17,566 bases of DNA from a virus (taxonomy: Duplodnaviria; Heunggongvirae; Uroviricota; Caudoviricetes), in IMG/VR virus record IMGVR_UViG_3300029071_000015, one strand, 5' to 3'. The notes under the pieces were generated by a model. That model was not told where the DNA came from, ran no database searches, and saw only the letters and a program-made list of their open reading frames with translations. A program made the translations under genes and the position numbers. How positions within the stretch are numbered: the stretch's first letter is position 1; the number at the start of each line of letters is the position of its first letter. This document shows, one piece after another, positions 988-17,566 of the stretch.

Positions 988-988
988 T

Positions 989-2806: not shown

Positions 2807-2820
2807 TCAGGAGACGGGGT

Positions 2821-3393: not shown

Positions 3394-3423
3394 AATTCCC
3401 CGAAAATCCGCCTGTTTTTACTG

Positions 3424-3458: not shown

Positions 3459-3557
3459 CATGCGTTTTCCCGCCTCATTTCCTGCAGATCACGCCGCACC
3501 CGGCGCGGCCTGAGCGTGTCAGTGCAACTGCATTAAAACCGCTCCGCAAAGCGGGCG

Positions 3558-3576
3558 GGCGAGGCGGGGAAAGCAC
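3558..3576. other. cos site (19-nt P2/P4-type cohesive-end sequence)
   Basis: ggcgaggcggggaaagcac is identical to the P2/P4 cohesive-end sequence as I recall it, and sits downstream of psu as in P4. Confidence 0.6.
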
Positions 3577-3603
3577 TGCGCGCTGCAAATTAATACTAGC
3601 TTA

Positions 3604-4167
3604 TTAAGCATCCGCTTCAAATCCTCCAAGATCGATTTGCTCTTCGATTTCAGGAGTCCAAAGTAATTCTTCTGGCGTAGCGTTTGACCAAAGCAATTTA
3701 CCATTCTCGATAACATACTTAACCGGTATTTTAGGATTGTTTATGTCTTTACCATCTCTTTCATGCCATTGTCTCTCCCATTTATCATAGAAGACTTCCA
3801 AATCACCGGGCATGAGTAAATAAACTGAACGGATAGTGATATTACTATAAATTGCGAACACCCATGGAACCTGCCTATATTTCGCAATTATTGTTGGATT
3901 CATATGATGGTGAGTTGAAAAACTTTTAGTTAACTCAACATTAACTGATTTTAATTCAAACTCAGTACCAGTGACATCTACTGCATCATTACCTTCTCGC
4001 CCAGGAAGAACTTTAAGACTGAGAAGTAAAAGAACTTGCAGGAGTTTCCCTCCGTTATCTTGGAATATATCATTGATTCCGTGCTTATTAGCTAACCGTT
4101 GATATTCTTCAACCTGAGGCCAAAGCGCAATTAAATTTGACCAATCTTGATGCAACTCAAATTTCAT
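3604..4167 (-). CDS. Type II restriction endonuclease, PvuII-like (PD-(D/E)xK)
   Basis: 187-aa ORF; segments [51 protein letters not shown] and DKWER match my recollection of R.PvuII, including the catalytic D...E-x-K; ATGA overlap with the upstream C gene; divergent from the methyltransferase. Confidence 0.75.
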
Positions 4168-4400
4168 ACCTGATTATTCTCCAACAGGGAACTGGGAGAG
4201 ACGCCAAGGGCTGAAGCAATTCGGTCGATATTATCAATGGAAATATTTCTTTCACATCGCTCTACTGATCCGATGTAAGTTCTATGCAAGCCTGCTAAGT
4301 CAGCCAAGGCTTCTTGAGACAACCCTTGTCTCTCCCTTAACTTTCTGATGTTATGGGCAAAAATCACTCTTGCTCTTGAGGGGTTTATCTTTCGTTCCAT
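4164..4400 (-). CDS. Controller (C) protein of restriction-modification system, XRE-family HTH
   Basis: 78-aa ORF with a helix-turn-helix region ([41 protein letters not shown]) resembling C.PvuII-type controller proteins; sits immediately upstream of and overlaps the endonuclease gene. Confidence 0.8.
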
Positions 4401-4427
4401 TCGCGAGACAATGCAGCCTTGATGACA

Positions 4428-4452
4428 ATAGATCTACAGACTATGAGTAGCA
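4428..4452. promoter_or_regulatory. Putative C-box operator in the divergent M/C-R intergenic region
   Basis: The 55-bp intergenic region contains dyad-symmetric elements (tagatcta; actatgagt, i.e. ACT-N3-AGT) just upstream of the C gene start, where C-protein operators normally lie. Confidence 0.4.
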
Positions 4453-4455
4453 GTT

Positions 4456-5430
4456 ATGACATTTGACAATAAAAAACCTGCGTACAAAACAGATTTGGGT
4501 GCAATGTACATTGCTGACTCGCTTGAAATGCTTAAATCGATGCCAGACAACAGCTTAAATTTAGTGATGACAAGCCCACCTTTCGCATTACAGCGTAAGA
4601 AAGAATATGGTAATCACGATCAAGAACAGTACATCGATTGGTTTTTAAAATTCGGCGAGCTGATTTTTAAAAAGCTAAAAGATGATGGTAGCTTTGTCGT
4701 CGATTTTGGTGGTGCTTACATGAAAGGAGTGCCTGTTAGAAGTGTCTACAACTTCCGGGTTTTGATCAGGATGATTGATGAGGTTGGGTTCCATCTGGCT
4801 GAGGACTTCTATTGGTTTAACCCTTCAAAACTACCAAGTCCTATTGAGTGGGTTAACAAAAGAAAGCTGCGTGTTAAAGATTCTGTTAACACAATTTGGT
4901 GGTTTAGCAAAACCGAATGGCCAAAGTCAGATATAACTAAAGTTCTTGTTCCCTATAGTGATAGGATGAAAAAACTTATTGAAGACCCTAATAAATATTA
5001 TTCCCCCAAAATGCGTCCATCAGGGCATGATATAAGCAGCAGCTTTGGCAAAGATAATGGCGGTGCTATACCTCCAAATTTATTGCAAATTCCCAACTCC
5101 GAATCTAACGGTGGATATTTATCGAGTTGTAAAAAAATTGGCGTTAAGGGGCATCCAGCACGATTCCCATCTAAATTGCCGGAGTTTTTCATTACAATGT
5201 TAACAGAGCCGGGTGATCTTGTTGTAGATATTTTTGGCGGTTCAAATACAACTGGAAGTGTTGCTGAACGATTAAAACGCAAATGGCTTTCATTTGAAAT
5301 ATTACCTGAATATGTAGCCGCATCTGTATTTAGATTTACAGATAAAAATACAAGTCAAGATATACTTCAAGAGATGTATGACACTATATTAAATGGAAAT
5401 ACTCTCGATTTATGCGCCAAAGAGAAATAA
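4456..5430 (+). CDS. DNA methyltransferase, beta-class amino-MTase (likely N4-cytosine, M.PvuII-like)
   Basis: 324-aa ORF; motif IV TSPPF near the N-terminus and motif I FGGSNTTG near the C-terminus (the circularly permuted order typical of beta-class N4C/N6A MTases); divergently arranged to the C-R genes. Confidence 0.8.
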   Translation: MTFDNKKPAYKTDLGAMYIADSLEMLKSMPDNSLNLVMTSPPFALQRKKEYGNHDQEQYIDWFLKFGELIFKKLKDDGSFVVDFGGAYMKGVPVRSVYNFRVLIRMIDEVGFHLAEDFYWFNPSKLPSPIEWVNKRKLRVKDSVNTIWWFSKTEWPKSDITKVLVPYSDRMKKLIEDPNKYYSPKMRPSGHDISSSFGKDNGGAIPPNLLQIPNSESNGGYLSSCKKIGVKGHPARFPSKLPEFFITMLTEPGDLVVDIFGGSNTTGSVAERLKRKWLSFEILPEYVAASVFRFTDKNTSQDILQEMYDTILNGNTLDLCAKEK

Positions 5431-5505
5431 GGTCAAATCGTAGTTAGCTAATTCGTAAAGAAAGCCAGTCATAGAGTCAGATTGGCTTTCTATCAGCATA
5501 AATAA

Positions 5506-6764
5506 TTAAGCATGAAGTTTTGCGTAGTCAAATGGACTAATAGGTTTAATCTTGTTTGCATCAAGATAATCAGCCCACCATTGAACCATTAATCGCCTTT
5601 CATCCAAATGTTCAGGGGTATGAATATAAGCTGCCCTAACACTATTACGCTCAGAATGACTCAACTGACGTTCTATCGCGTCATCACTCCATAGCCCCGA
5701 CTCCCCCAACGCACCACGTGCCATATTCCTAAAACCATGACCACAGACTTCCGTTTTTGTGTTATATCCCATCGCACGCAATGCATTGTTTACCGTATTT
5801 TCACTCATAACCTTAGCTGCGTCATGATCTCCCGGGAAAAGAAGCTCTTTATCACCACTAATCTGCTCAAGCTGTACTAACAACATCATCGCCTGCTGGC
5901 TAAGTGGAACTATATGCTCCTCTTTCATTTTCATGCCGCGATACGAGTAACGCACACCTTTAATTTCTTCACGTTTTGCCGGAATACGCCAAATAGCGTT
6001 ATCAAAATCAAATTCTTTCCAACGAGCAAAACGCAATTCGCTTGAACGAACAAAAGTTAGTAAAGAAAGCTCAACCGCAATTTTCGTCATCATACGACCA
6101 CGATATGCAGCAAGACGCGCCAAGAACTCAGGGAAACGATGTGAGGGTAGCGCCGGATAGTGCCGCATTTTAGATGTCGATAACGCTCCAGCCATATCAC
6201 TTGCAGGATTCGAGTCTATATAATCGTTCTGTACGGCATAGCGCATAATAGTAGTGACACGTTGCTGAAGACGCTGCGCTACATCATGCTTACCACTGGC
6301 ATCAACTTTTTTATCGGAGCTAGAAGATGACTAGTTTTAAGCTGTCGGATATCAGACGAGCCAATATAAGGGAAGATATAAAGCTCTAGATAGCGAAGAA
6401 CGCGCCCCCGATGATCCTCGCTCCAACGTTTGTTGCTGGCATGCCATTCACGGGTAATAGTTTCAAAATTATAAGTACCAGCATTCTCTGCTTGGGCCTC
6501 TTTTCGTACTGCTTTTGGATCTATGCCGTGTGCCAGCAACTTTTTCGCTTCATCCCTTCTCGTTCTAGCTTCAGCAAGCGTCACGGTCGGCCAAACACCA
6601 AAAGCAAGACGATCCTCTTTTTTGTCGGAGGGGCGTCTGTATTTCATACGCCAATATTTAGAGCCTTTGATAGAAACCTCAAGATACAAACCGCCACCAT
6701 CAGCCATTTTGTAGGTTTTGTCTTTTAGCTTTGCGGTCTCGACTTGTCTGGCGTTGAGCTTCAT
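5506..6764 (-). pseudogene. int: P4-family tyrosine integrase, frameshifted (split into 6279..6764 and 5506..6246 ORFs)
   Basis: The two ORFs together align along the intact integrase at 16301..17566 (roughly 85-90% identity); the nucleotide alignment shows a 1-bp deletion near 6270..6290 (ttttttatcgg versus ttttttaatcgg in the intact copy) that breaks the frame. Confidence 0.8.
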
Positions 6765-6916
6765 TTTGGGGGCACATTTCTAATCGAAGTTAAGATGCCC
6801 CCAATGATATCCGGATTTCAACGGACAACCTCGGAAGAGGTAGGACGTAAAAATCGCTGCAAGCATTGATTTTAAAGGGATATTTGGACTTTCTCGGATG
6901 GTCTTGGAAGTACTAA

Positions 6917-6935
6917 TGGTGCGAAGGCCGGACTC
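6917..6935 (-). other. att core remnant: partial copy of a tRNA-Leu (leuX-like) 3' end
   Basis: tggtgcgaaggccggactc is the reverse complement of a tRNA-Leu 3' end (...GAGTCCGGCCTTCG(G)CACCA) with one base missing; located ~150 bp upstream of the frameshifted int, in the same orientation as a tRNA-int arrangement. Confidence 0.45.
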
Positions 6936-7080
6936 AAATTACGATATAACATACTGAAATATAATAATTTTAAATTAAAAGGAAAGTAATATGCCCCCTT
7001 TTGTGCCCCCAACGATTTTTTTGAGCATATAAAACCTAGCTAATTGATATTGCTAACAAATTAAAGATTAACTCCCTATT

Positions 7081-7111
7081 CGGTTAGGATCCGAAATCCG
7101 GATCCTAACCG
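7081..7111. repeat. Perfect 13-bp inverted repeat with 5-nt spacer
   Basis: cggttaggatccg-aaatc-cggatcctaaccg; no flanking T-run, so not a typical intrinsic terminator. Confidence 0.7.
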
Positions 7112-7129
7112 GAACTTAATCCCCACAAA

Positions 7130-7415
7130 AAAGTTTTTTTGCATTTAACTGTTCATACTGTTCACCTTGGTTATTTCTCATTTTATATCATGCAGTTAAG
7201 TGATGATGAGTTGGTGAAGGGTGAACAGTCGACTCTTCACCTTTGTTCGTTTTACTCATTCTGGGGGGGCCCCGTCAGGCGATACACGGGGGGATAAAAA
7301 GTTTTTTCCGGTTTTACTGTTCACACTGTTCACCTCTGGTTTTTTATCAATAATTTCATGGTGATACAGGGTGAACATACGGTGAAGGGTGAACAGTGGA
7401 GTGTTCACCCTGTGG
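7130..7415. promoter_or_regulatory. crr-like cis replication region: two ~120-bp direct repeats containing TGTTCACC-type iterons in both orientations
   Basis: Unit 1 (about 7130..7245) and unit 2 (about 7296..7415) each contain aaaaagttttttt, ctgttcaNactgttcacc and ggtgaagggtgaacag; TGTTCACC is the P4 alpha-protein type I iteron; located just past the 3' end of the primase gene, as crr is in P4. Confidence 0.55.
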
Positions 7416-7461: not shown

Positions 7462-9795
7462 TTATGCCTCTGCGGGGTCGTCGCACTTCGGCAGCCAGTC
7501 GCCGTAGCTTTCCTCTTTCAGCGACAGGTTAGTCTGTATCCCCTGCTTTGTGTGCCGCTTCTCATAATTCAGGCCGTACTCTTTCAGCATCATGGGCAGC
7601 CCCAGCCCGAACATTTTCAGGCTGAGTACGTTCCTGTACCCGTTAGCCTCCATATAGGCCAGATACGCGTGATAGAGATATTTACGGTAATTACGCGGGA
7701 TGATGCTGGCATTCCCCATAAACATCCCGTTGGTCTGCGGGAGCATTTCCAGATAGCCGCAAAAATCAAACGTCGGGTCAGCATCGCGCTTGATGCTGAG
7801 CGCCTCGTCGGAGTTCTGCTGCGACTGGAGCAGTGCGCGCGCTGCCATCGGGTCGCTGAATTTCTGCATAAGCTGGCGCACAATCACGGCCAGCTCACGC
7901 GCAATTTTATCCCTGAGCTGCGGGTCGCGTTCCTCCGGCGCAATCTGCTCCGGGAAGTGGATAATCACCCGGCGGCGCGACACACCGCCGCTGCGGTCGG
8001 TGAAGCGCATGGGGTTATTGTTCACGGCCAGAATCACCGCCGGAATATGTGTTGAGTATGGGTTCTGGTATTTCGGGTCAACTGAGACCGCATCGCCGCC
8101 GGTGATGGCCTTAAGTCCTGCGCCGTCACCGCTCCATTTTTCCTGGTCTGGCAGACGGATTAGCGAGAAGCCAATCAGGGAGGCACGCTTGCGCGGGTCT
8201 TCCAGTGTGTCGATATCGGCCGACGTGGCGTTATCTTCCCCGGCGAGCAGGGTCGCGATTTCGGCCAGAATACTTTTGCCGCTCCCGCCGGGGCCGGTGA
8301 CTTCGAGAAAGAGCTGCCAGTCGTAGCGGTTCGCCAGTACCATAAACAGCGCGGCCAGAATCACGTCGCGTTTTTGTGGATTTTTGCCGGCCGCACGGTC
8401 GAGCCAGCGCCAGAAGTTCGGCGAGTGAGTCTCCAGCGTTTCCCCGTCCACCGGTGGGGTGAAATCCACGTCGCACAGCGTGCGCAGCCAGTGTGATTTA
8501 CTGTGCGGGCTGAACAGGCCGCTCTGGGTATCGAGTACCCCGTTGCGAAAGCCAATCAGACGACGCGCCGGTGTATCCTGCTGCGGAATAATCAGTTTCA
8601 GGGTCTCCACCACCGAGGCAATTTTCCCCGATGAGAACGGGGCGCGCAGACGCTGGAATAAGTCAGCCACATTCCGTGAAAAAGTGGCGGCAGGGATATT
8701 TTTCCAGATGCCGTTTTCATAGCGGGACAGGAGCTGGCCGTTTGCATCCACCGCCAGCGCTTCGCCGTAATGCTCATGCACCCGCAAGGCCTTGTCGCTG
8801 GCGCTCATGGCGGTAAATTCCGCCTCGCTCATGGTATCAAACGGGCTTTGCGCCGGTGGCCGGATAGCGTCATAAATGGCTTTGCGTGTCGCATCCTCAC
8901 CATTCTGCATAAACGCATCATTCCAGTCACCGAACACCGGCGGCAGGGCGACAATGCCCTCACAGGCTTCTGCGGCCGCGGCGGCTTTACTCTGGCCGTC
9001 GCCGTTAAGGTCACGGTCGGCGGCGAGCACAATCTGACAGGCCGGGTGTTTTTGTCGGGCAAGGCTCGCCAGAGAAAGGAGGTTCACGGAGGACAGCGCC
9101 ACCATGACGGTTTCGCCGGTCAGGTGATGCACGGTGAGCGCGGTCGCATAACCCTCCGCTATCCACAGGCGCTTTCCCGCCTGTTTTTTCCCTTCGATGA
9201 TGTGGCACGCTCCTTTTACCGCCCCGCCTTTCAGGGTGCGTTTGAGACCGTCAGAATTAATAAGCTGAACGTTAACCAGCGCCCCGGCATCGTCATACAG
9301 TGGGACAACCATATCACCGGCGCGGAACGTCACACCGCCGGTTTTGTGTGTGGCCGTCAGCATGACACACTCATGACCGGGGAATCCCTTGCGGGTGAGG
9401 TAGGCATTGCCGCTGGCCGGTCGGGTTTTCTCCATGAGCCTGACGGCCAGCGCGGCCGCCGCCTGGCGGTCAACCTCCGTTTCTGCTTCTGCGGCCGCAA
9501 TCACTTCCGGGGCAACCGGCGGCAGGTTGCCGGTCACGGCGTTCACCTTTTGAGCTGCCTCTGACGGATTTACACCGAACACCTTTTCAACCAGCTTAAG
9601 CCCGTCACCTGCGCCACACTGATTGCAAAACCACGTCCCGCGCCCTTCTTTATCATCAAAGCGGAAACGGTCAGAGCCGCCACACACCGGGCAGGACTGA
9701 TGGCGGTTTTTAATCACCTTCACACCCAGCGCAGGGAGAATGTGCGGCCAGTGGCCGCAGGCCTGTTTTACCGTTTCTGTTACGTTCATTTTCAT
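7462..9795 (-). CDS. P4 alpha-like primase-helicase (zinc-binding primase, P-loop NTPase)
   Basis: Long ORF; start chosen at MKMNVTETV with RBS gagggagaaaacaaccATG; N-terminal zinc-finger CPVCGGSDRF...FCNQCG; Walker A GPGGSGKS; size comparable to P4 alpha. Confidence 0.9.
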   Translation of the reverse strand: MKMNVTETVKQACGHWPHILPALGVKVIKNRHQSCPVCGGSDRFRFDDKEGRGTWFCNQCGAGDGLKLVEKVFGVNPSEAAQKVNAVTGNLPPVAPEVIAAAEAETEVDRQAAAALAVRLMEKTRPASGNAYLTRKGFPGHECVMLTATHKTGGVTFRAGDMVVPLYDDAGALVNVQLINSDGLKRTLKGGAVKGACHIIEGKKQAGKRLWIAEGYATALTVHHLTGETVMVALSSVNLLSLASLARQKHPACQIVLAADRDLNGDGQSKAAAAAEACEGIVALPPVFGDWNDAFMQNGEDATRKAIYDAIRPPAQSPFDTMSEAEFTAMSASDKALRVHEHYGEALAVDANGQLLSRYENGIWKNIPAATFSRNVADLFQRLRAPFSSGKIASVVETLKLIIPQQDTPARRLIGFRNGVLDTQSGLFSPHSKSHWLRTLCDVDFTPPVDGETLETHSPNFWRWLDRAAGKNPQKRDVILAALFMVLANRYDWQLFLEVTGPGGSGKSILAEIATLLAGEDNATSADIDTLEDPRKRASLIGFSLIRLPDQEKWSGDGAGLKAITGGDAVSVDPKYQNPYSTHIPAVILAVNNNPMRFTDRSGGVSRRRVIIHFPEQIAPEERDPQLRDKIARELAVIVRQLMQKFSDPMAARALLQSQQNSDEALSIKRDADPTFDFCGYLEMLPQTNGMFMGNASIIPRNYRKYLYHAYLAYMEANGYRNVLSLKMFGLGLPMMLKEYGLNYEKRHTKQGIQTNLSLKEESYGDWLPKCDDPAEA

Positions 9796-9809
9796 GGTTG
9801 TTTTCTCCC

Positions 9810-10130
9810 TCAGTGCAGTACCGGCGCGGTGATATGACGGGCGCAAAGCTCATCCATCACGGCCAGCCCGAGAAAGGACAGCGACGGCGCGGCTTTGAGT
9901 GGTCCGGCTTCCATTAAATCCTCCAGTAGTGCACAGGCAATCTGGCGGCCTTTTTCCTCGCCGTGCTGGCGCAGGTAGAAGCCCTCCAGTTCGGCGGCAA
10001 TAGTGCTTTCCAGCGCGTCGAGGGTGAGGTGTGGATGGCGGTGCTGACGTTCGCACAGGGTCAGCCATGCACAGGCCACGGCGCGACGATACAGCGCGGC
10101 GCGTAATACGGGCGGTAATGGCTTTTTCAT
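9810..10130 (-). CDS. Hypothetical protein, P4-family early-operon gene upstream of primase
   Basis: 106-aa ORF ending 14 nt upstream of the primase start; ATGA overlap with the preceding gene suggests an operon. Confidence 0.5.
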
Positions 10131-10354
10131 ACGTTACCCTCCCCGGTCAGCCAGTGCTGATTGCAGCGTTCTACCACGCCGTCGAGCTGGGCAGTCATGA
10201 GATAAATCACGGAGGTGAGCTGTAACTGCTGCGCCGGGTCACGCCTAACGGTCGCGCAGTCCTGCACCTGCATCAGGTCGCCGACGAGCTGGCCGACATT
10301 GCGCATATGCTCCAGACATTCGAGGTCACGGGCGGTAATGGTGGTGTGTCTCAT
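10127..10354 (-). CDS. Hypothetical small protein (early operon)
   Basis: About 75-aa ORF; start placed at the second ATG, which overlaps the stop of the upstream small ORF (gcATGAgacac). Confidence 0.45.
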
Positions 10355-10545
10355 GCGCACACCTCCGCAACCGGCAGACGGCCAGCGAACGAGAGAAAGT
10401 AATCGCGAACGAGAGAAAGGCGAGCGGCGTGCTCATCACCGGCAACGGTGCGAAGCATACAGATACGGGGTTTACGGTCTGCGCGACGAACGGCGGCAAA
10501 CACAAAGACAAACTGCGGGTGTGACGGGGTGAGGGTCGTAGCCAT
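10351..10545 (-). CDS. Hypothetical small protein (64 aa)
   Basis: Short version of the 183-aa ORF, starting at MATTLTPSH with GGAG about 9 nt upstream; the longer form would overlap the AlpA-like gene and an apparently non-coding region. Confidence 0.3.
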
Positions 10546-10747
10546 AGCGGCAATCTCCAATAAGTAGCGGTTATCGCCACCACAAGAGCTGCAAATCTCA
10601 TGGGTGGTAGCCCGGACAGGGTTTGCAGTACCGGCCTTATTGGAAACCGGCCAGCCCGAAGGCTGCCCCGCCCGGACCACCATTATCTGACAGGAGCCAC
10701 GGTGTAAGCACCACAGCCCGAAAAATAGGTGTGTCTGAGCAACGACA

Positions 10748-10770
10748 TAAAAAAACACGCTCGGCGCGTG
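10748..10770 (-). terminator. Putative intrinsic terminator (minus strand) downstream of the AlpA-like gene
   Basis: 6-bp stem acacgc/gcgtgt with 5-nt loop, followed on the minus strand by a run of 7-8 U. Confidence 0.35.
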
Positions 10771-10898
10771 TTGTGTCGCCAATAAGTTACACGGGCTGCA
10801 AATCCCGGCTGCCGATTTTGCGACAGCGGGAAAACTATACCTGGAAACGGCGAAAAGAAGCAAGCCAGAAAAAGGGGCTGTTTGCTGAACGGTCATCA

Positions 10899-11165
10899 TC
10901 ACGCGTCATAGCCCTGGTTACGTTCGGCAATGCGATCCGCCATCCATGCAGTGATTTCAGACTGCGCCCACGCCACATTTTTTCCGCCGAGGGAGATTTG
11001 TTTCGGGAAGGCTTCCCGGCTGATAAGGTCGTAAATGGTCGAACGGGACAGGCCGCACAGATGCATCACTTCGGGCAGACGGATAAAGCGCTCGTGAACG
11101 GTATCAGAAACCGGCATCAGCGGCGCGGCAGGGGCAGAAGACGGGGAAGAAAAAGCGGTGTGCAT
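10899..11165 (-). CDS. AlpA/Vis-family phage transcriptional regulator (excisionase-like HTH)
   Basis: 88-aa ORF containing [42 protein letters not shown], typical of AlpA-family proteins; RBS gaggtagcccgATG; the true start may be the internal Met (MPVSD). Confidence 0.75.
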
Positions 11166-11294
11166 CGGGCTACCTCATAAAGTCCATACAGTGCCGGTCG
11201 TGTCCGTCCGGCTTCGGGTAACTCCTTATTATGTCTATATTTTTCCTCAGGTCATGTGAGATTTTCGGGGAAACAAACATTGACTTTTCCCTAT

Positions 11295-11331
11295 GGCAAA
11301 CAAAGGCAAACGCTGGCAAACATATGCAAAT
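11295..11331. promoter_or_regulatory. Four 7-bp direct repeats (GGCAAAC x3, TGCAAAT) at exact 10-bp spacing: putative operator array
   Basis: Repeats start at 11295, 11305, 11315 and 11325; one helical turn apart; in the divergent regulatory region between the AlpA-like and sid-like genes. Confidence 0.4.
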
Positions 11332-11339
11332 CACTGCAT

Positions 11340-11540
11340 TACAATGCAGCAATTTCTATTTCTTTTAGTTATATATTTTTTATTTTTAATCGAAATAAAA
11401 TCTAGATGCTATAGCCAGGGCAAAACAGGAGGGTGAACAGTGGTGAACAGTCGGTGAACAGTCAGACCCTCAACTGTTCACCATTTAACTTACTGTATTA
11501 CTTATCTTTTTATTTAAGGTGAACAGTGGTGAATAGTTAT
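11340..11540. promoter_or_regulatory. ori-like region: AT-rich stretch plus cluster of GGTGAACA/TGTTCACC iterons
   Basis: AT-rich 11340..11410; iterons gggtgaacagtggtgaacagtcggtgaacagt...ctgttcacc (11432..11483) and ggtgaacagtggtgaatagt (11517..11538); same octamer as in the crr-like region. Confidence 0.5.
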
Positions 11541-11612
11541 AAGTAAAAAAACAAACGGTGAGTTAGATTTTCCTGCGACCTTTCTCTGGCCAGCCTGATT
11601 TTAAGGTCTGTT

Positions 11613-11630
11613 TGTGCCAGCACTCTGACA
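11613..11630 (+). promoter_or_regulatory. TGT-N12-ACA element, candidate Ogr/Delta-activated late promoter site (Psid-like)
   Basis: tgtgccagcactctgaca lies ~75-90 bp upstream of the sid-like start; P2/P4 late promoters carry a TGT-N12-ACA activator site around -55. Confidence 0.3.
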
Positions 11631-11702
11631 ACGGTAATGAATCGTGTTGTTGTGCAGGAGGCGTCAGAATCATTTCAGGTTGAACACACGGAGAGCCTGA
11701 AC

Positions 11703-12446
11703 ATGAAACCCGAACTCATTATCAAAGCCATGCAGACCGTTATCAGTAAACAGGATGAAGGCGCGGAACAACGCATTGCCGGTGCGCTGGCCGCACTTAA
11801 CGAAGCAAAAGACGCATACATGGCCAGCATGGAAAAACTCAGCGACATTGAGGCTTCCATTCAGCGTTGTGAGCAGGAACGACAGACTGCCCTCAGTGAA
11901 AGCGCACAGGCCGAACAGGACTGGCGCAGCCGCTTTCGAACCCTGCGTGGCAACCTCACTCCTGAACTGAAAGCTGAACACAGTAAGCGTATCGCCAGCC
12001 GCGAACTGGCTGATGAGTTCACCGGTCTGATTACCGAGCTCGAGAAAGACAAAAGCCTCGCCATGCTTGGCGCATGCTCCTCCGGTACGGCTTATATCCG
12101 CGCCCATGAAAAAGCATTCACCACTTACGCCAACAGCGAGTGGAAGAAGGCGCAGGCCGGAATCAGCCCCGCACTGTTACGTGCCTTCCTGTTGCGTATA
12201 CGGTCGCTGGAAATGAGTGGGGAAACCTCGCCGCGCGCGACCGTGAATCGCGAGCTGGGTGATGCACTTAATATGCAGTCAGCCCTGTATCATTTTAATA
12301 TTACACAGGAGCCGGTTCTGTCCGTAACGGGCATGAATCGTCCGGTAATTACCGGGGTTGATATGGAACTGTTCAAAAGCCCCGCCAAACGGATGAAGCT
12401 TGCCGCTGAACTGGCAGCCAAAAACCCTGAACAGGCGGAGGGCTGA
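11703..12446 (+). CDS. Sid-like protein (putative capsid-size-determination / external scaffold), divergent
   Basis: About 247 aa from the internal Met with RBS ggagagcctgaacATG; coiled-coil-like, Ala/Glu/Gln-rich; sits immediately upstream of delta and psu as sid does in P4; C-terminal segment (EPVLSVTGMNRPVITGVDMELF) shows weak resemblance to the P4 Sid C-terminus seen at 2567..2698. Confidence 0.55.
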   Translation: MKPELIIKAMQTVISKQDEGAEQRIAGALAALNEAKDAYMASMEKLSDIEASIQRCEQERQTALSESAQAEQDWRSRFRTLRGNLTPELKAEHSKRIASRELADEFTGLITELEKDKSLAMLGACSSGTAYIRAHEKAFTTYANSEWKKAQAGISPALLRAFLLRIRSLEMSGETSPRATVNRELGDALNMQSALYHFNITQEPVLSVTGMNRPVITGVDMELFKSPAKRMKLAAELAAKNPEQAEG

Positions 12447-12449
12447 ATT

Positions 12450-12689
12450 ATGTTTCACTGCCCGTTCTGCAAAAAGACCTCGCATGTCCGAACCAGCCGG
12501 TATCTGTCGGAAAACGTCAAACAGCGTTATCACCAGTGTACCAATATCGAATGCTCGGCCACTTTCCGCACCATCGAGTCTGTTGACGGTGTGATACGTG
12601 CCGCACCGGAGAAAACCGACCCCGCCCCGGTGACGCCAGCGCCGCCGCGTAAAGTACAGGGCTGCTACAGCTCGCCGTTCCGGCATTAA
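12450..12689 (+). CDS. Ogr/Delta-family zinc-finger late transcription activator
   Basis: 79-aa ORF MFHCPFCKKTSHVRTSRY...YHQCTNIECSATF with the CxxC...CxxC arrangement of P2 Ogr / P4 delta; starts 3 nt after the sid-like stop. Confidence 0.85.
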   Translation: MFHCPFCKKTSHVRTSRYLSENVKQRYHQCTNIECSATFRTIESVDGVIRAAPEKTDPAPVTPAPPRKVQGCYSSPFRH

Positions 12690-12704
12690 TCAGGAGAGAG
12701 ACAC

Positions 12705-13271
12705 GTGACCACTGTGACATTGCAGCAGGCCTTTGAGGCCTGTCAGACGAACAAAAACACCTGGCTGAAACGTAAAGCCGAACTGGCCGACCTTGAACTT
12801 GAATACCGTGAACAGCTCCTTGCCGGTGACGAACAAATCCCGCGCAAAATGCAGGATTTGCGCGACAATATCGACGTGAAAAAATGGGAGATTAATCAGA
12901 CTGCCGGTCGCTATATCCGCTCACATGAGGAGGTGCAGCACATCAGCATTCGCAACCGGCTCAATGACTTTATGCAGCAGCACGGCGCGGAGCTGGCCGC
13001 CACGCTGGCACCTGAGCTGATGGGATATCACGAACAGCTTCCCGCAGTAAAACAGAGCGCCATGCAGCACTCGGTTGATTATCTGCGTGAAGCCCTGTCG
13101 GTGTGGCTGGCCGCCGGTGAAAAAATTAATTATTCCGTGCAGGACAGCGATATTTTAACGGCCATCGGATTCAGGCCTGATGCGGCTTCGCGGGATGATA
13201 GTCGCGAAAAATTCACCCCGGCACAGAACCTGATTTACACCCGCCGACGTGCAGAACTGGCCACACGGTAG
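12705..13271 (+). CDS. psu: Psu-like polarity suppression protein
   Basis: 188-aa ORF (GTG start with RBS caggagagagacacGTG) with conserved blocks AGRYIRSHE.VQHISI, RLNDFMQQHG, LAPELMGY, GEKINYS.QDSDILTAIGFRPD and DSREKFTPAQN matching my recollection of P4 Psu and the pseudogene copy at 2821..3393. Confidence 0.85.
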   Translation: MTTVTLQQAFEACQTNKNTWLKRKAELADLELEYREQLLAGDEQIPRKMQDLRDNIDVKKWEINQTAGRYIRSHEEVQHISIRNRLNDFMQQHGAELAATLAPELMGYHEQLPAVKQSAMQHSVDYLREALSVWLAAGEKINYSVQDSDILTAIGFRPDAASRDDSREKFTPAQNLIYTRRRAELATR

Positions 13272-13310
13272 CACGCGAAAAAATCCCCGAAAATTCCGCT
13301 ATTTTTCCTG

Positions 13311-13346
13311 AAAAAAGCCATGCATCCATAAGGTGCATGGTTTTGC
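13311..13346 (+). terminator. Putative intrinsic terminator after psu
   Basis: Hairpin gccatgca-tccataagg-tgcatgg followed by tttt. Confidence 0.4.
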
Positions 13347-13444
13347 ATGCAAATCCCCGTATTTTTTATCCCACGCAACACCAGTGCCGGTGCGGCCTGA
13401 GGCCGTTCATGCACCTGCATTAAAAGCGACCTCTTAAGCGGGCA

Positions 13445-13463
13445 GGCGTGGCGGGGAGAGCAT
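13445..13463. other. Variant cos-like site (16/19 match to the P2/P4 cohesive-end sequence)
   Basis: ggcgtggcggggagagcat versus canonical ggcgaggcggggaaagcac (present intact at 3558..3576); same position relative to psu and the upstream hairpin. Confidence 0.45.
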
Positions 13464-13588
13464 TGCGCGCTAAGCCGTGAGGATAATTATTATCCTACTC
13501 ATGACCTGTCTAATCGGAAAGAAGTGAAAATATTCATGTAACCCCTGAATATTTAACGTTAAACCGATCAAATTCTAGGGCGAAAATA

Positions 13589-13618
13589 TTGCCTGAGCTA
13601 AGTCAATGGGAGTATGCT
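13589..13618 (+). promoter_or_regulatory. Candidate sigma70 promoter for the cargo cassette
   Basis: TTGCCT-N18-TATGCT about 50 bp upstream of the cassette start codon at 13669; weak match, by eye only. Confidence 0.25.
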
Positions 13619-13668
13619 TAATTTTTGATCATGGTGCATATCCAAAGATAAGAAGCTAAGGAAAGAGC

Positions 13669-14748
13669 ATGAATGTAGGGCATCTCAATTTTTTCAAGGT
13701 TAATAAGTGCGGTTTATACAAGGTAAATGATGACAATACCTATGGTTTAGAACTAAGCGAAACATTTGACCTCATACAGGATTGGGTAGGAACTAAACCT
13801 CTTGCACTCACCATACCATGGGACCCAAAAGAAAAACCCAATAGATCAAAGTGTTATTGTAAAGACATCTACAAAGATGAAAATACTGGTGATTTTTTAA
13901 TCATGTTATGGAAATCTGATACTGATAGTACTGGTTCTTTATTAGGAGCGAGTGAAGACGGTGAAATCGGAAGTTCATCAGTGGTTAAATATACTAATAG
14001 CTACAGAGGGAAAAAAGTCATCTGGGGTCGCCCATGCTTTTATTGGGTTATACCTGAACTTGAAACTATAGTTTCTATTAAATTCGATCATTCTGTTTGT
14101 GACTCTGAACTATTTCAAGATTATGTACACTCATCTATTACTAATAGAGTTAAACATAGCAAAAGAGTTAAAAATAAAACCGAGAAAGGTTATATAAGAT
14201 TATCTAATACTGATGACGAAGATTTATATAAATACATGTACAGATTTGATATGAAGCTCCGAAGCTTAGAAACCACTCATGCTGAGTTAGGTAAATTGAT
14301 ATCAAAAATAACACATATTGTTCGCAGAGAAACCATTATTATAAATCCAAATGACGCACGAGCTGATTGGTTAAAGACTTTTAGCACTCTCGTTCCATTT
14401 GTGTCCGGAAAGAAAAACACCAGAACAAGACAGATTGAAATAAAAGCAGAAGCGAAGCCATCCTTGAAAGAAGTTCAAGAAATAATTGAAAAACATTCTG
14501 CTGAGGATAGAGAAAAACGTCTTTGGGATAATGTGGGATTTGCGACGGACAAGGGCATAACATGGGTGGATAAATATAGAATGCGTGATATTCTCAATGT
14601 CCCTTCCGAAGACTATTCGACATATACCGCTGCATATATCTACGAACACATATCACACAAAAGAAAAGAATTCATTTCCCCTATATTAAAAGAGCTAAAA
14701 GCATTAAAATCTCAATCAAGAATAAAGAAAGCATCTGGAGAGGATTGA
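13669..14748 (+). CDS. Hypothetical protein (cargo gene A, 359 aa, soluble, Lys-rich)
   Basis: Long ORF with RBS aaggaaagagcATG; AT-rich codon usage contrasting with the satellite backbone; no catalytic motif I can recognise; stop directly abuts the next start (TGAATG). Confidence 0.7.
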   Translation: MNVGHLNFFKVNKCGLYKVNDDNTYGLELSETFDLIQDWVGTKPLALTIPWDPKEKPNRSKCYCKDIYKDENTGDFLIMLWKSDTDSTGSLLGASEDGEIGSSSVVKYTNSYRGKKVIWGRPCFYWVIPELETIVSIKFDHSVCDSELFQDYVHSSITNRVKHSKRVKNKTEKGYIRLSNTDDEDLYKYMYRFDMKLRSLETTHAELGKLISKITHIVRRETIIINPNDARADWLKTFSTLVPFVSGKKNTRTRQIEIKAEAKPSLKEVQEIIEKHSAEDREKRLWDNVGFATDKGITWVDKYRMRDILNVPSEDYSTYTAAYIYEHISHKRKEFISPILKELKALKSQSRIKKASGED

Positions 14749-15285
14749 ATGTTAAAAGCTATAGTAGGCCTCGTCAAATACACATGGATATACATAGCAA
14801 TATTCATTATATCGCTATTGGTCATTTTACCATCCGATATTTACTATGTGTATAACGATTTTGCTAACTATTGCACTCTTCTCGTATCAGTTTCTGGAAT
14901 GGTTTTTACTATTATGGGGATTTGGTTAGCGTTTCTTTATCCAAATGCTTTGCAGCGTATTGTTAACCCCAAAACTATAGAAACTGTTGATTTCACCGAA
15001 CAACTGGAAGATACAAAAAGGTTAGAAGCAATAGTTGGAAGTGTTCTAAAATCATCTTTCGTTATGATTACTTTACTTGTTGTATATTTAGTTAAACTAG
15101 TATTTTTCAAGAGTCATCTTTATTTAGAGAGTCAAGAAGTAATAAAAGACATATCTTTAGCATTAATTATTGCCATTTCATACATGCAGATTGAGGCAGT
15201 GATTAGTGTAATACTAGCTAATGTTATGTTTATCAATGATTTACATAATAAGCGAGAGCAAAGAGACATCGACGATCAAGTATGA
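14749..15285 (+). CDS. Hypothetical integral membrane protein (cargo gene B, 178 aa, ~4 TM helices)
   Basis: Four hydrophobic segments (WIYIAIFIISLLVIL, LLVSVSGMVFTIMGIWLAFLY, FVMITLLVVYLVKLVFF, LALIIAISYMQIEAVISVILANVMFI); translationally coupled to gene A. Confidence 0.7.
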   Translation: MLKAIVGLVKYTWIYIAIFIISLLVILPSDIYYVYNDFANYCTLLVSVSGMVFTIMGIWLAFLYPNALQRIVNPKTIETVDFTEQLEDTKRLEAIVGSVLKSSFVMITLLVVYLVKLVFFKSHLYLESQEVIKDISLALIIAISYMQIEAVISVILANVMFINDLHNKREQRDIDDQV

Positions 15286-15292
15286 GGAAAAA

Positions 15293-16246
15293 ATGAAAAA
15301 AAACATACGAGTTATACCTAAAAACATTCATAACAAGTTAAAAAGGCTTGGCAATGCAGTTGTTGCTGGCACTTCCATCGCATTTACAGAAGACCAATTA
15401 AAAAATGGTATACTAGAGCACCTTGGAATATACTTTGATAATGGTGTTAATGCTTATGAGACGTCGGTTATACCCGATCCATTGCAAGGCAAATATTCAT
15501 TCAAAAATGTTTTCGGTGAAGAAATCGTAAGAAAAGACCTTCCAAAAGAAACTCATTACACTGAAATTGAGTCACCTAACTGGGGTGATAGTTCTAACGG
15601 TACGCATACTGTTAGATTACCTCACGAGAAATACCCCAGAGATATTATCCCACCAAGACTCATAGCAATTGAAATTAATCACAAACAGTCTTCGGACAGT
15701 CATTTCATATTTAATTTCAGAGTAACTAGAATTTTAGAAAAAAAATCAACCAAGTTTCATGATGAATTATTATTCGACTTAAATCTTCTTCAAGAAAATA
15801 TTGGGAAGTGTGGGATTGAGAATGCTGATAAACCTATATCGACTTATGCTGACACACTCATAGTATCATGGGACATATTTCCACCAGGTAGTAAAGAGGA
15901 AGTTTTAGCAAGAATCTTTAGAGGGAAAAATATCACTACAGATAAGAAAAGTGTTGCTGAAAACAGATATGACTTCTTTATGAGCCTTGATCCTAAAAAA
16001 ATTGTCACAGGTAATAGTACGTTCAGTAATTATATTGGAGCTATGCTAGAGGACGACCTGGTTGTTTTTGAAAATATAGAATATGGTAATGCAATATATA
16101 TCCTCTATGATAACTGGGATGAAATCAGCAAGCTATCTCGAATCGATTTGTTATCAGGAAGAGCAGGCAATAATTTCGATAGAATAATTCATAGTGGTAA
16201 TTGGAAAGACGAGGTGCGAAAAAAAGTTACTAATGGAAGATTATGA
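15293..16246 (+). CDS. Hypothetical protein (cargo gene C, 317 aa, soluble)
   Basis: Start placed at MKKNIRV with RBS tatgaggaaaaaATG, 7 nt after the gene B stop; the longer listed ORF (from 15221) would overlap gene B; followed by a strong terminator. Confidence 0.65.
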   Translation: MKKNIRVIPKNIHNKLKRLGNAVVAGTSIAFTEDQLKNGILEHLGIYFDNGVNAYETSVIPDPLQGKYSFKNVFGEEIVRKDLPKETHYTEIESPNWGDSSNGTHTVRLPHEKYPRDIIPPRLIAIEINHKQSSDSHFIFNFRVTRILEKKSTKFHDELLFDLNLLQENIGKCGIENADKPISTYADTLIVSWDIFPPGSKEEVLARIFRGKNITTDKKSVAENRYDFFMSLDPKKIVTGNSTFSNYIGAMLEDDLVVFENIEYGNAIYILYDNWDEISKLSRIDLLSGRAGNNFDRIIHSGNWKDEVRKKVTNGRL

Positions 16247-16263
16247 TTAAAGTGTTTAACACA

Positions 16264-16300
16264 AAATAAACGCCTATTTAAATTATAGGCGTTTATTTTG
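16264..16300. terminator. Bidirectional intrinsic terminator between cargo gene C and int
   Basis: Hairpin aaacgcctat-ttaaatt-ataggcgttt flanked by an A-run upstream and a T-run downstream; lies between convergent genes. Confidence 0.5.
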
Positions 16301-17566
16301 CTATTGTTTTTTGTTTATTTTAGCAAAATCATAAGGTGTAACTGTTTTGCTTTCATTTGCTTTGAGGTAATCAGCCCACCATTGCACCATCAAGCGACGC
16401 TCATCCAAATGCTCAGAGGTATGAATATACGCAGCACGTACATTATTTCTTTCCGAATGGCTCAACTGCCGTTCAATCGCGTCATCACTCCATAATCCTG
16501 ACTCACCCATAGCACCACGTGCCATCGTTCTGAATCCATGCCCGCAAACTTCAGTTTTCGTGTCATAGCCCATCGCACGCAGGGCGCTATTTACCGTGTT
16601 TTCACTCATAACCTTAGTTGCGTCATGATCCCCAGGAAACAGCAGCTCTTTATCACCACTAATTTGCTTGAGCTGCTCTAATAAAACCATCGCCTGCCGA
16701 CTGAGAGGAACGATATGCTCCTCTTTCATCTTCATGCCACGGTATGAGTAACGCACGCCTTTAATTTCTTCTCGCTTTGCCGGTATGCGCCAAAGAGATT
16801 TATCGAAGTCGAATTCATCCCAACGCGCGAAACGTAACTCACTGGAACGCACAAAAGTTAGTAAGGAAAGCTCGACAGCGATCCGTGTCATTACACGGCC
16901 ACGATAAGCAGCAAGCCGAGCAAGAAACTCAGGGAACCGGCTTGAGGGTAAAGCGGGGTAATGTCGCGCTTTGGTTGTCGATAGCGCACCGGCCATATCA
17001 CTGGCTGGATTTGATTCGATGTAATCGTTCTGTACGGCATAACGCATGATCGCCGTGACGCGCTGTTGCAAGCGCTGAGCGACGTCATGCTTTCCACTGG
17101 CATCAACTTTTTTAATCGGGGCTAACAGGTGGCTGGTTTTGAGCTGGCGAATGTCGGACGAACCGATATGAGGAAAAATATAAAGCTCAAGATATCGAAG
17201 AACGCGCGATCGATGGTCTTCACTCCATCGCTTGTTACAGGCATGCCATTCACGAGCAATGTTTTCGAAAGTATATGCCCCTGAATTCTCGGCTTGAGCT
17301 TCTTTCTGTTCGGCTTTTGGGTCAATGCCCTGCACTAACAGCTTTTTAGCTTCATCGCGCTTTGCTCTTGCCTGAGCAAGAGTCACTGTAGGCCAAACAC
17401 CAAAAGCAAGGCGATCCTCTTTTTTGTCTGAGGGGCGTCTGTATTTCATGCGCCAGTATTTAGAACCCTTGGCCGACACTTCAAGATACAACCCCCCGCC
17501 ATCGGCCATTTTGTAGGTTTTGTCTTTCGGCTTTGCGGTCTCGACCTGTCTGGCGTTGAGCTTCAT
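16301..17566 (-). CDS. int: P4-family tyrosine integrase (site-specific recombinase), intact
   Basis: 421-aa ORF; catalytic HxxR (HGFRTMARG) and C-terminal Tyr region (VRAAYIHTSEH); start codon is the last three bases of the window, so the promoter, att site and presumed tRNA lie beyond the window. Confidence 0.9.
   Translation of the reverse strand: MKLNARQVETAKPKDKTYKMADGGGLYLEVSAKGSKYWRMKYRRPSDKKEDRLAFGVWPTVTLAQARAKRDEAKKLLVQGIDPKAEQKEAQAENSGAYTFENIAREWHACNKRWSEDHRSRVLRYLELYIFPHIGSSDIRQLKTSHLLAPIKKVDASGKHDVAQRLQQRVTAIMRYAVQNDYIESNPASDMAGALSTTKARHYPALPSSRFPEFLARLAAYRGRVMTRIAVELSLLTFVRSSELRFARWDEFDFDKSLWRIPAKREEIKGVRYSYRGMKMKEEHIVPLSRQAMVLLEQLKQISGDKELLFPGDHDATKVMSENTVNSALRAMGYDTKTEVCGHGFRTMARGAMGESGLWSDDAIERQLSHSERNNVRAAYIHTSEHLDERRLMVQWWADYLKANESKTVTPYDFAKINKKQ

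What the first reader, a model, noticed from the sequence alone, without database searches (positions are those of the whole stretch)
13445..13463. Element 1 carries a divergent cos-like sequence whereas the decayed element retains the canonical P2/P4 cos
Seen in sequence: 3558..3576 is ggcgaggcggggaaagcac, which is the canonical 19-nt cohesive end as I recall it; the positional equivalent in element 1 is ggcgtggcggggagagcat (3 mismatches). The flanking hairpin and psu context are conserved. Inference: element 1 may be packaged by a helper whose terminase recognises a variant cos, or its packaging may be impaired despite otherwise intact genes.
Basis: partly seen in the sequence, partly recalled or inferred. 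Interest (0 to 1): 0.4.

Follow-up and report, generated by a model that had tools for sequence, protein, structure and literature searches.

The report
Common variant cos site of P4-like satellite
The "divergent" packaging site of the intact P4-like satellite is a widespread, conserved natural allele of the P2/P4/186 cohesive-end site. It differs from the P2/P4 sequence only at the three positions that vary across the whole family, so it is ordinary and very probably functional.

Summary
Window 13445-13463 reads GGCGTGGCGGGGAGAGCAT and 3558-3576 reads GGCGAGGCGGGGAAAGCAC, which is identical to the P2 and P4 reference ends.

- The element-1 19-mer is 18/19 identical to the phage 186 cos.
- Its three differences from P2/P4 fall on positions 5, 14 and 19. 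In a sample of 111 sites chosen by their flanks, these are the only appreciably variable positions.
- The exact 19-mer occurs 109 times in IMG/VR: 88 in P4-like satellites whose Psu is 46-99% identical to P4 Psu, 19 in P2-like phages at the normal cos position next to the portal gene, and 2 unclassified.
- It sits in the conserved ~62-bp core, and an upstream array of TGCAT motifs is intact.

So this is a working cos allele, not a decayed one.

A dedicated "variant-cos terminase" is unlikely. Helpers carrying this allele have small terminase subunits from three lineages and large subunits from two, and each lineage has closer relatives that use other alleles.

One small surprise emerged. This allele is the commonest one in satellites (13/33 sampled) yet nearly absent from helpers (0/116 sampled, 0 deposited phages, none seen in E. 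coli). That argues for promiscuous packaging.

The parts
13445..13463 (+). 19-nt cohesive-end (nicking) sequence of element 1, allele T5/G14/T19: GGCGTGGCGGGGAGAGCAT
   Evidence: It aligns with nt 1-19 of P4, P2 and 186. The exact sequence occurs in 109 IMG/VR contigs.
13409..13470 (+). Conserved ~62-bp cos core: ATGCACCTGCATTAAAAGCGACCTCTTAAGCGGGCA + 19-mer + TGCGCGC
   Evidence: Consensus profiles of satellites and helpers and the alignment with P4, P2, 186 and helpers that carry the same allele. This 63-bp stretch is found in 93 of 5426 complete E. coli genomes.
13321..13348 (+). Three TGCAT motifs at -124, -111 and -101 from the nick. Two more, TGCAC at 13410 and TGCAT at 13416, lie inside the core.
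   Evidence: The same offsets hold in 85-99% of satellites and 39-97% of helpers, at about 20 times the background motif density. Inferred to be the terminase-binding part of cos.
13379..13392 (+). Short GC-rich hairpin (CACC-N6-GGTG). P4 (CGCGCC/GGCGCG), 186 and the same-allele helpers (GCGCCAG/CTGGCGC) have a hairpin with a different stem sequence at the same place.
   Evidence: Read from the alignment. Folding energy is not better than for shuffled sequence, so this is descriptive only.
12705..13271 (+). psu, intact, 188 aa
   Evidence: Pfam Psu E=3e-88. 64% identity to P4 Psu.
12450..12689 (+). delta (single Ogr/Delta zinc-finger domain, 79 aa)
   Evidence: Pfam Ogr_Delta E=3e-20.
11637..12446 (+). 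sid-like capsid-size gene
   Evidence: tblastn against P4 Sid: 31% identity over 214 aa, E=2e-26.
7462..9846 (-). alpha primase-helicase of element 1
   Evidence: Pfam Zn_Ribbon_Prim, Toprim and D5 domains. 84.6% identity to P4 alpha over 777 aa.
13669..16246 (+). Cargo hotspot directly right of cos: PDC-M18A-like (13669-14748), PDC-M18B-like (14749-15285) and an unknown ORF (15221-16246)
   Evidence: PADLOC hits at E=1.5e-38 and 9.6e-16. No Pfam or NCBIfam hits.
16301..17566 (-). P4-type integrase of element 1
   Evidence: Pfam integrase domains. 95.6% identity to P4 Int.
3558..3576 (+). 19-nt cohesive-end sequence of the decayed element, P2/P4 allele A5/A14/C19
2827..3390 (+). psu pseudogene of the decayed element (two in-frame stops)
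   Evidence: tblastn gives 92% identity to P4 Psu. The translation shows stops at codons 20 and 116.

Best explanation
Window 13445-13463 is the functional cos cleavage site of an intact P4-like satellite. A P2-like helper supplies the terminase (homologues of gpM and gpP). The terminase is inferred to bind the conserved flanks: the TGCAT motifs at -124, -111, -101, -35 and -29, the CTGCATTAAAA...AAGCGGGC block on the left, and TGCGCGC on the right. It then nicks at the borders of the 19-mer to give 5' cohesive ends.

The 19-mer is the T5/G14/T19 allele. This is one of about eight natural alleles of the family, and they differ almost only at positions 5, 14 and 19. I infer that these positions are tolerated rather than discriminating. 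Element 1 should therefore be packageable by several kinds of P2-like helper (186-like, P2-like and others), not by one dedicated helper.

Shown here: the sequence, its conservation, its presence in self-packaging phages, and the lack of coupling between allele and terminase lineage. Inferred: terminase binding to the motifs and cross-packaging.
For: - 18/19 identical to the experimentally defined 186 cohesive end.
- In a flank-defined sample of 111 sites, only positions 5, 14 and 19 vary. All 16 other positions are at least 98% invariant.
- The exact 19-mer occurs in 109 IMG/VR contigs. Of these, 88 are satellites, and their Psu proteins are 46-99% identical to P4 Psu. A 19-mer kept identical across such deep divergence is conserved, not decaying.
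- Another 19 are P2-like phages with the site in the normal position, with the portal start about 1212-1232 nt to the right in the eight loci that match P2's layout. A phage must be able to package its own genome from its own cos.
- The core and the upstream motifs are intact in element 1.
- Allele and terminase are decoupled. Same-allele helpers have gpM of three lineages that are 61-69% identical to each other, while each is 75-78.5% identical to helpers using ATC, ATT or TAT. Their gpP is 97.3-97.4% identical to gpP of ATC and TAT helpers. One ATC helper and one TAT helper share 91% identical gpM although their alleles differ at all three variable positions.
- The allele is common in satellites (6/17 in IMG/VR, 7/16 in species-representative genomes). 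It is absent from sampled helpers (0/99 and 0/17), from the 84 deposited P2-like phage records that matched, and apparently from helpers in 5426 E. coli genomes, 93 of which carry such satellites. Most of these satellites therefore cannot depend on a helper with the same allele.
- From my own knowledge, not checked here: P4 (allele AAC) is packaged by phage 186 (allele TAT) (Sauer et al. 1982, Virology).
- The same cargo module sits next to both AAC and TGT cos sites (L051 and L170). Satellites with the two alleles therefore exchange DNA at cos.
Against: - No packaging experiment exists for this allele, and none could be run here.
- The gpM sample is small (28 sequences, 5 of them from same-allele helpers). 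Within it, helpers with at least 95% identical gpM never differ in allele, so some co-variation is not excluded.
- G at position 14 was never seen in sampled helpers. That would also fit a site that most terminases cut poorly.
- 'No same-allele helper in E. coli' rests on match lengths plus two inspected loci, not on inspection of all 98 genomes with a match.
Confidence: 0.72

Rival explanations
1. Helper-specific cos. The T5/G14/T19 allele is cut efficiently only by the terminase of the minority of P2-like phages that carry the same allele. Element 1 would then be mobilised only by those helpers.
For: - 19 P2-like phages carry the identical 19-mer.
- Several of them (L147, L185, L202, L204, L209, L213, L225) also share element 1's left core almost base for base, including AAAAGCGAC where most helpers have AAAACCG.
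- A satellite and a helper with this allele occur in the same metagenome, 3300011959 (L198 and L202).
- Alleles are otherwise often shared by satellites and helpers of the same host group: AAC for P2 and P4 in E. coli, TTT in Rahnella, Rouxiella and Winslowiella.
- Within the small gpM sample, near-identical gpM never goes with a different allele.
Against: - The allele is found in about 40% of sampled satellites but in 0 of 116 sampled helpers and in no deposited phage.
- 93 E. coli genomes carry such satellites, and no place there shows helper-type flanks.
- Same-allele helpers use three gpM lineages and two gpP lineages, each closer to helpers with other alleles.
- From my own knowledge: P4 is packaged by 186 despite two mismatches.
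Confidence: 0.17
2. Impaired or dead cos. The three substitutions weaken cleavage, and element 1 is on its way to immobilisation despite intact genes.
For: G at position 14 is essentially absent from sampled helper phages. No experiment shows that this sequence is cleaved in a satellite.
Against: - The identical sequence is kept in 88 satellites with deeply diverged Psu, Sid and Int, and in 19 phages that depend on it for their own packaging.
- The satellites sit at several chromosomal sites and carry many different cargos, which implies ongoing mobility.
- All flanking conserved elements are present.
- An identical copy of element 1 lies on an independent metagenomic viral contig, L130.
Confidence: 0.04
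3. Satellite-adapted allele. G14 is selected in satellites because it gives an advantage over the helper genome, for example better competition for terminase, or less annealing and recombination between satellite and helper cohesive ends.
For: Strong enrichment in satellites: 13/33 against 0/116 helpers, Fisher p = 3e-10, uncorrected for phylogeny. A second G14 allele, GGT, was also seen only in satellites (2/2). G14 is maintained across deeply diverged satellites.
Against: Descent within a large satellite clade, combined with rare exchange with helpers, explains the same pattern without selection. Nineteen helpers do carry the allele. No functional data exist. In E. coli, satellites mostly carry the helper-type AAC allele.
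Confidence: 0.07

Closest known systems
cos of coliphage 186 (NC_001317 nt 1-19, GGCGTGGCGGGGAAAGCAT)
   Same: 18 of 19 bases, including T5 and T19. The right flank TGCGCGC is the same. The left core (ATGCA-CTGCATTAAAA...AAG-GGGCA) and the upstream TGCAT motif array are shared.
   Different: Position 14 is G in element 1 and A in 186. 186 is a self-sufficient P2-like phage with the portal gene to the right of cos. Element 1 is a satellite with cargo and integrase genes there.
cos of satellite P4 (NC_001609) and of its helper P2 (NC_001895): GGCGAGGCGGGGAAAGCAC. The roughly 55-bp core was described by Ziermann & Calendar 1990, as cited in PMC9594776, PMC3931495 and PMC9122126.
   Same: Same 19-nt frame and 16 of 19 bases. 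In P4 it has the same place in the satellite genome, between psu and the cargo hotspot and integrase. The conserved flanks are the same. The decayed element in this window carries exactly this allele.
   Different: Three substitutions, at positions 5, 14 and 19. The left core has AAAAGCGAC where P4 has AAAACCGCC, and the small CCCGC/GCGGG hairpin next to the nick in P4 is not conserved.
cos of uncultivated P2-like phages in IMG/VR, for example L213/L225 (IMGVR_UViG_3300045988_134179, 3300028993_000008), L209 and L185
   Same: Identical 19-mer. The 36 nt to the left are identical at 34 positions, and TGCGCGCT is the same on the right.
   Different: These are helpers, with portal, terminase and capsid genes to the right. 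The closest deposited phage, Enterobacter phage ENT4 (88% nucleotide identity), has the ATC allele instead.
cos of Stenotrophomonas phage Smp131 (GGCGTGGCGGGGAGACGAG, PMC3931495)
   Same: Shares T5 and G14 and the first 15 bases.
   Different: The last four bases differ. It is a distant P2-like phage of another host order. The sequence is known to me only from the paper.

Membership tests
P2/186/P4-family cos site | 19-nt GC-rich cohesive-end sequence fitting GGCG-N-GGCGGGGA-N-AGCA-N | tested here: met
   exact fit, with 2 sites in the window against 0.01 expected by chance. All 16 family-invariant positions are kept.
P2/186/P4-family cos site | Conserved core flanks: CTGCATTAAAA-N10-AAGCGGGC immediately to the left and TGCGCGC immediately to the right (the ~55-bp core of the literature) | tested here: met
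   Element 1 matches the satellite and helper consensus on both sides.
P2/186/P4-family cos site | Upstream TGCAT motif array at fixed distances (-124, -111, -101, -29). This feature was derived here from 98 helpers and 98 satellites and is not a published criterion. | tested here: met
   Element 1 has motifs starting at 13321, 13334, 13344, 13410 and 13416.
P2/186/P4-family cos site | The same sequence serves as the cos of a self-packaging P2-like phage | tested here: met
   Nineteen IMG/VR P2-like contigs have the exact 19-mer between the replication-gene side and the portal gene.
P2/186/P4-family cos site | Cleavage by helper terminase to give 19-nt 5' overhangs, and packaging into virions | not testable with these tools
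   This needs transduction assays, in vitro cleavage or mapping of virion DNA ends.
P4-like satellite (element 1) | Core gene set in P4 order: alpha, orf106/DUF5375, Ash/Icd region, AlpA, sid, delta, psu, cos, hotspot, int | tested here: met
   Alpha 84.6%, Psu 64%, Sid 31% and Int 95.6% identity to P4. Pfam finds DUF5375, Phage_ASH, Phage_AlpA and Ogr_Delta. No capsid, tail or terminase genes were found among the window's ORFs scanned.
Helper-specific variant cos (a distinct packaging specificity class) | The allele co-varies with a dedicated terminase lineage | tested here: not met
   Same-allele helpers fall in three gpM lineages (61-69% identical to each other) and two gpP lineages (83%). 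Each lineage is closer to helpers with other alleles (gpM up to 78.5%, gpP 97.4%). The gpM sample is small (n = 28).
Helper-specific variant cos (a distinct packaging specificity class) | Satellites with the allele co-reside with helpers that have the same allele | tested here: inconclusive
   In E. coli, 93-98 genomes have the allele, with at most 2 places per genome. The inspected places are satellites, and no match extends into helper-type flanks. One metagenome holds both a satellite and a helper with the allele. The window's own genome is not available.

The most novel reading that the evidence does not exclude
G at position 14 of cos is a satellite-specific adaptation. A large share of P4-like satellites across Enterobacterales keep a cohesive-end allele that their helpers almost never carry. 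It might bias terminase choice towards the satellite, or it might prevent the satellite's cohesive ends from annealing and recombining with helper genomes. On this reading the packaging site itself would be a locus of satellite-helper conflict, not simple mimicry.
Probability: 0.1. Interest if true: 0.55.

Novelty: new member of a known kind. Interest (0 to 1): 0.22.

Why it matters
For this window the result mainly removes a false alarm. Element 1 has an ordinary, intact packaging site, so it should be treated as a mobilisable satellite that carries a candidate defence system (PDC-M18).

More generally, the tabulation shows that the 'canonical' P2/P4 cos is only one of several alleles. Variation is confined to three positions of the 19-mer. 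The commonest satellite allele is rare in helpers. If experiments confirm this, P4-like satellites do not need a helper with an exactly matching cos. That widens the expected helper range of these defence-carrying elements. It is also useful for designing P4/P2 cosmid delivery vectors.

Tried and rejected
About 86 of its 120 rows were chance matches in GC-rich genomes such as Streptomyces and Solirubrobacterales.
- A 36-nt megablast query against deposited phages found nothing. That is uninformative because megablast needs an exact 28-base word and linear records are cut at cos. I repeated it with blastn.
- I looked for retronphage phiR73, a P4-like satellite shown experimentally to use P2, to read its cos allele. 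Accession M64113 is not in the collection.
- The Lindqvist/Deho/Calendar 1993 review (PMC372931) is not held. The P4-on-186 helper statement therefore rests on my own knowledge.
- Single-strand folding of the cos regions gave energies no better than shuffled sequence for both window copies. I make no structural claim beyond describing the hairpins.
- I tried to identify the source genome in complete E. coli genomes. The best match to window 1-7400 was 88.6% identity over 44% of the query, and the cos region gave only partial matches. The resident P2-like prophages of the source strain could therefore not be examined.
- I considered whether the ≥99% identity matches were deposited phages with this allele, and rejected it. 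One search, with a query that starts at the nick, found no record above 99%.

Full report
**1. The observation**

The window reads GGCGTGGCGGGGAGAGCAT at 13445-13463 and GGCGAGGCGGGGAAAGCAC at 3558-3576. The second string is identical to nt 1-19 of P4 (NC_001609) and to the annotated cosL of P2 (NC_001895).

The two sites are homologous by position. P4's linear record ends at the base that aligns with window 13444. The two psu-cos regions align at 72% identity over 836 nt (alignment).

A scan of the whole window with the degenerate 19-mer and up to three mismatches finds only these two sites, against 0.01 expected by chance. Element 1 therefore has no second, canonical cos.

**2. Context**

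Element 1 is a complete P4-like satellite:

| Gene or feature | Window coordinates | Evidence |
|---|---|---|
| alpha | 7462-9846 (-) | 84.6% identity to P4 alpha |
| DUF5375 | 9810-10130 (-) | Pfam |
| Ash/Icd region | 10351-10902 (-) | Pfam Phage_ASH |
| AlpA | 10899-11165 (-) | Pfam Phage_AlpA |
| sid-like | 11637-12446 | 31% identity to P4 Sid |
| delta | 12450-12689 | Pfam Ogr_Delta |
| psu | 12705-13271 | 64% identity to P4 Psu |
| cos | 13445-13463 | see section 1 |
| cargo hotspot | 13669-16246 | see section 8 |
| integrase | 16301-17566 (-) | 95.6% identity to P4 Int |

The other element is truly decayed. Its psu has two in-frame stops. Only the last 46 codons of sid remain, delta is missing, and the integrase is split into two ORFs. 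An apparently intact PvuII-type restriction-modification cassette sits in its hotspot.

The source genome is not among complete E. coli genomes. An independent metagenomic viral contig, L130, is 100% identical to window 9753-16999.

**3. What the element-1 sequence is**

It is not an odd sequence. Phage 186's experimentally defined cohesive end is GGCGTGGCGGGGAAAGCAT, so element 1 is 18/19 identical to it.

A degenerate scan of IMG/VR (cut at 120 rows) found these alleles, written as the bases at positions 5, 14 and 19:

| Allele | Count |
|---|---|
| AAC | 44 |
| TTT | 31 |
| TAT | 18 |
| ATC | 10 |
| TGT | 6 |
| ATT | 6 |
| GGT | 2 |
| AAT | 2 |
| TTA | 1 |

That pattern fixed the other 16 positions by design. 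I therefore repeated the sampling with a pattern that specifies only the left flank. In the 111 sites defined this way, positions 5, 14 and 19 are the only appreciably variable ones, and every other position is at least 98% invariant. Element 1's three 'mismatches' are thus the family's three polymorphic positions.

I classified them by tblastn with P4 and P2 proteins. Eighty-eight are P4-like satellites, with psu about 730 nt to the left of cos. Nineteen are P2-like phages and two are unclassified. In the eight phage loci that match P2's layout, the portal gene starts 1212-1232 nt to the right of cos, as in P2.

The satellites are not clonal. Among the 35 whose Psu could be extracted, identity to P4 Psu ranges from 46 to 99%, and identity to the window's Psu from 49 to 93%. 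Integrases and Sid proteins also vary widely.

An identical 19-mer kept across that much divergence, and used by phages that depend on it for their own packaging, is a functional cos allele.

**4. The flanks**

Consensus profiles and an alignment with P4, P2, 186 and four same-allele helpers show the conserved core. It consists of ATGCA-CTGCATTAAAA-N10-AAGCGGGC(A/G), the 19-mer, and TGCGCGC. This agrees with the roughly 55-bp P2/P4 core of Ziermann & Calendar 1990, as cited in PMC9594776, PMC3931495 and PMC9122126. Element 1 has all of it.

Further left there is an array of TGCAT motifs at fixed distances from the nick: -124, -111, -101 and -29, plus TGCA at -35. The motifs are present at these offsets in 85-99% of satellites and 39-97% of helpers, at about 20 times the background density. 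Element 1 has every one, starting at 13321, 13334, 13344, 13410 and 13416.

I infer that this array is the terminase-binding part of cos. This fits the report that longer P4 flanks raise cosmid transduction more than 1000-fold (PMC9594776). It is not proven here.

**5. Does the allele need its own terminase?**

They do not appear to.

- The five same-allele helpers with a complete small subunit (gpM homologue) fall into three lineages. These are only 61-69% identical to one another.
- Each lineage has closer relatives (75-78.5% identical) among helpers with ATC, ATT or TAT alleles.
- Their large subunits (gpP homologues) form two lineages that are 83% identical to each other. One lineage is 97.3-97.4% identical to gpP of helpers with ATC or TAT.
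- One ATC helper and one TAT helper share 91% identical gpM although their alleles differ at all three variable positions.

A caveat applies. The gpM sample is small (28 sequences), and within it helpers with at least 95% identical gpM never differ in allele.

**6. An asymmetry between satellites and helpers**

| Sample | Satellites with the element-1 allele | Helpers with the allele | Source |
|---|---|---|---|
| Real cos sites from species-representative genomes | 7/16 (Enterobacter chuandaensis, E. cloacae, Citrobacter portucalensis, C. murliniae, a Serratia sp. and two loci whose organism I did not look up) | 0/17 | |
| Combined | 13/33 | 0/116 | Fisher p = 3e-10, uncorrected for relatedness, |

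None of the 84 deposited P2-like phage records that matched the query has the exact sequence. The best matches have one mismatch. The closest deposited relative of the L225-type helper, Enterobacter phage ENT4, has the ATC allele.

In 5426 complete E. coli genomes, the element-1-type 63-bp core occurs in 93 genomes (94 places). The P2/P4-type core occurs in 2131 genomes.

A query that extends into the helper-type right flank of L225 matched only the shared core in 98 genomes. Both inspected places lie in satellites. Strain G47-1 has two places with the TGT-type core, and the one I inspected is a satellite. Strain C5 has a satellite with the P2/P4-type core and, elsewhere, a place with the TGT-type core.

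Most satellites with this allele therefore live without a resident helper that has the same allele. This is most simply explained if helpers with other alleles package them.

It is established knowledge that P4 (allele AAC) can use 186 (allele TAT) as helper (Sauer et al. 1982). That statement is from my own knowledge, and the review I tried to check is not held.

**7. Exchange at cos**

- Contig L062 shares element 1's left arm (psu to cos) at 93-99% identity but has an unrelated right arm.
- L051 (cos allele AAC) and L170 (cos allele TGT, P4-type psu) share element 1's right arm, which holds the cargo, at 88-99% identity. They do not share its left arm.

This fits the proposal of Rousset et al. 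2022 that cos is a recombination boundary for the defence hotspot (PMC9122126). It also shows that satellites with different alleles meet and exchange DNA.

**8. Verdict**

Its thrust is not supported, whether read as a divergent site, a dedicated helper or impaired packaging.

The best explanation is a functional, common allele of the P2/186/P4 cos in which positions 5, 14 and 19 are tolerated. My confidence is about 0.72.

The rivals are:
- helper-specific recognition, about 0.17;
- a satellite-advantage allele, about 0.07;
- a dead site, about 0.04.

The feature is a new member of a known kind, and interest is low. The one point that a specialist might want to follow up is that the commonest satellite allele is almost absent from helpers.

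The hotspot next to the site carries a PADLOC candidate system, PDC-M18A/B, plus an unknown ORF.

Noticed in passing
window 13321-13348 and 13410-13420; also 3434-3461 and 3529-3533; loci L005-L229: An array of TGCAT motifs lies at fixed distances (-124, -111, -101, -35, -29) to the left of the cos nick. It is shared by P4-like satellites and P2-like helpers at about 20 times the background density. It probably forms the terminase-binding part of cos and extends the functional site well beyond the 55-bp core.
   Followed up: partly
window 13669-16246: The cargo hotspot of element 1 encodes proteins that match the PADLOC candidate defence system PDC-M18 (M18A E=1.5e-38, M18B E=9.6e-16). It also holds a third 341-aa ORF that overlaps the second by 65 nt and has no hit in Pfam, NCBIfam or PADLOC.
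   Followed up: partly
window 3604-5430: The decayed element keeps an apparently intact PvuII-type restriction-modification cassette: endonuclease 3604-4167 (-), C-protein HTH 4164-4400 (-) and methylase 4456-5430 (+). Its own psu, sid, delta and int are broken. The defence cargo seems to have outlived the satellite that brought it.
   Followed up: partly
window 5506-6764 and 16301-17566: The split integrase of the decayed element is 81% identical in nucleotide sequence to element 1's integrase. Both are P4-Int-like (88-96% amino-acid identity to P4 Int). The two elements lie head to tail, which suggests tandem insertion at one attachment site. No tRNA gene lies inside the window.
   Followed up: partly
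L051, L170 and L062 compared with window 12745-14345: The same PDC-M18 cargo arm sits next to an AAC cos in L051 and next to a TGT cos in L170 and in the window. The window's psu arm sits next to an unrelated cargo in L062. The breakpoints lie at or within the cos core, which is direct evidence for arm swapping at cos.
   Followed up: partly
flank-defined sample of 111 cos sites: Positions 5 and 19 of the 19-mer are strongly linked: A5 with C19 49 times, T5 with T19 48 times, A5 with T19 10 times, and T5 with C19 never. Whether this reflects lineage structure or a functional coupling at the two nick sites is unknown.
   Followed up: no
window 12450-12689: Element 1's delta is a 79-aa protein with a single Ogr/Delta domain. 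P4 delta is a 166-aa protein that tblastn aligns to it in two separate segments. E. coli NCTC10973 and G47-1 satellites have similarly short versions.
   Followed up: no
L016 and L023 (IMG/VR): A further G14 allele, GGCGGGGCGGGGAGAGCAT (G5/G14/T19), was seen only in satellites (2 of 2). Single examples of C5/G14/T19 and of changes at positions 10, 13 and 15 also exist.
   Followed up: no
window 1-1297: The left end of the window encodes a SASA-family sialate O-acetylesterase-like protein (1-987) and an overlapping HNH-domain ORF (815-1297). They lie upstream of the satellite remnant, and their relation to the decayed element is unclear.
   Followed up: no
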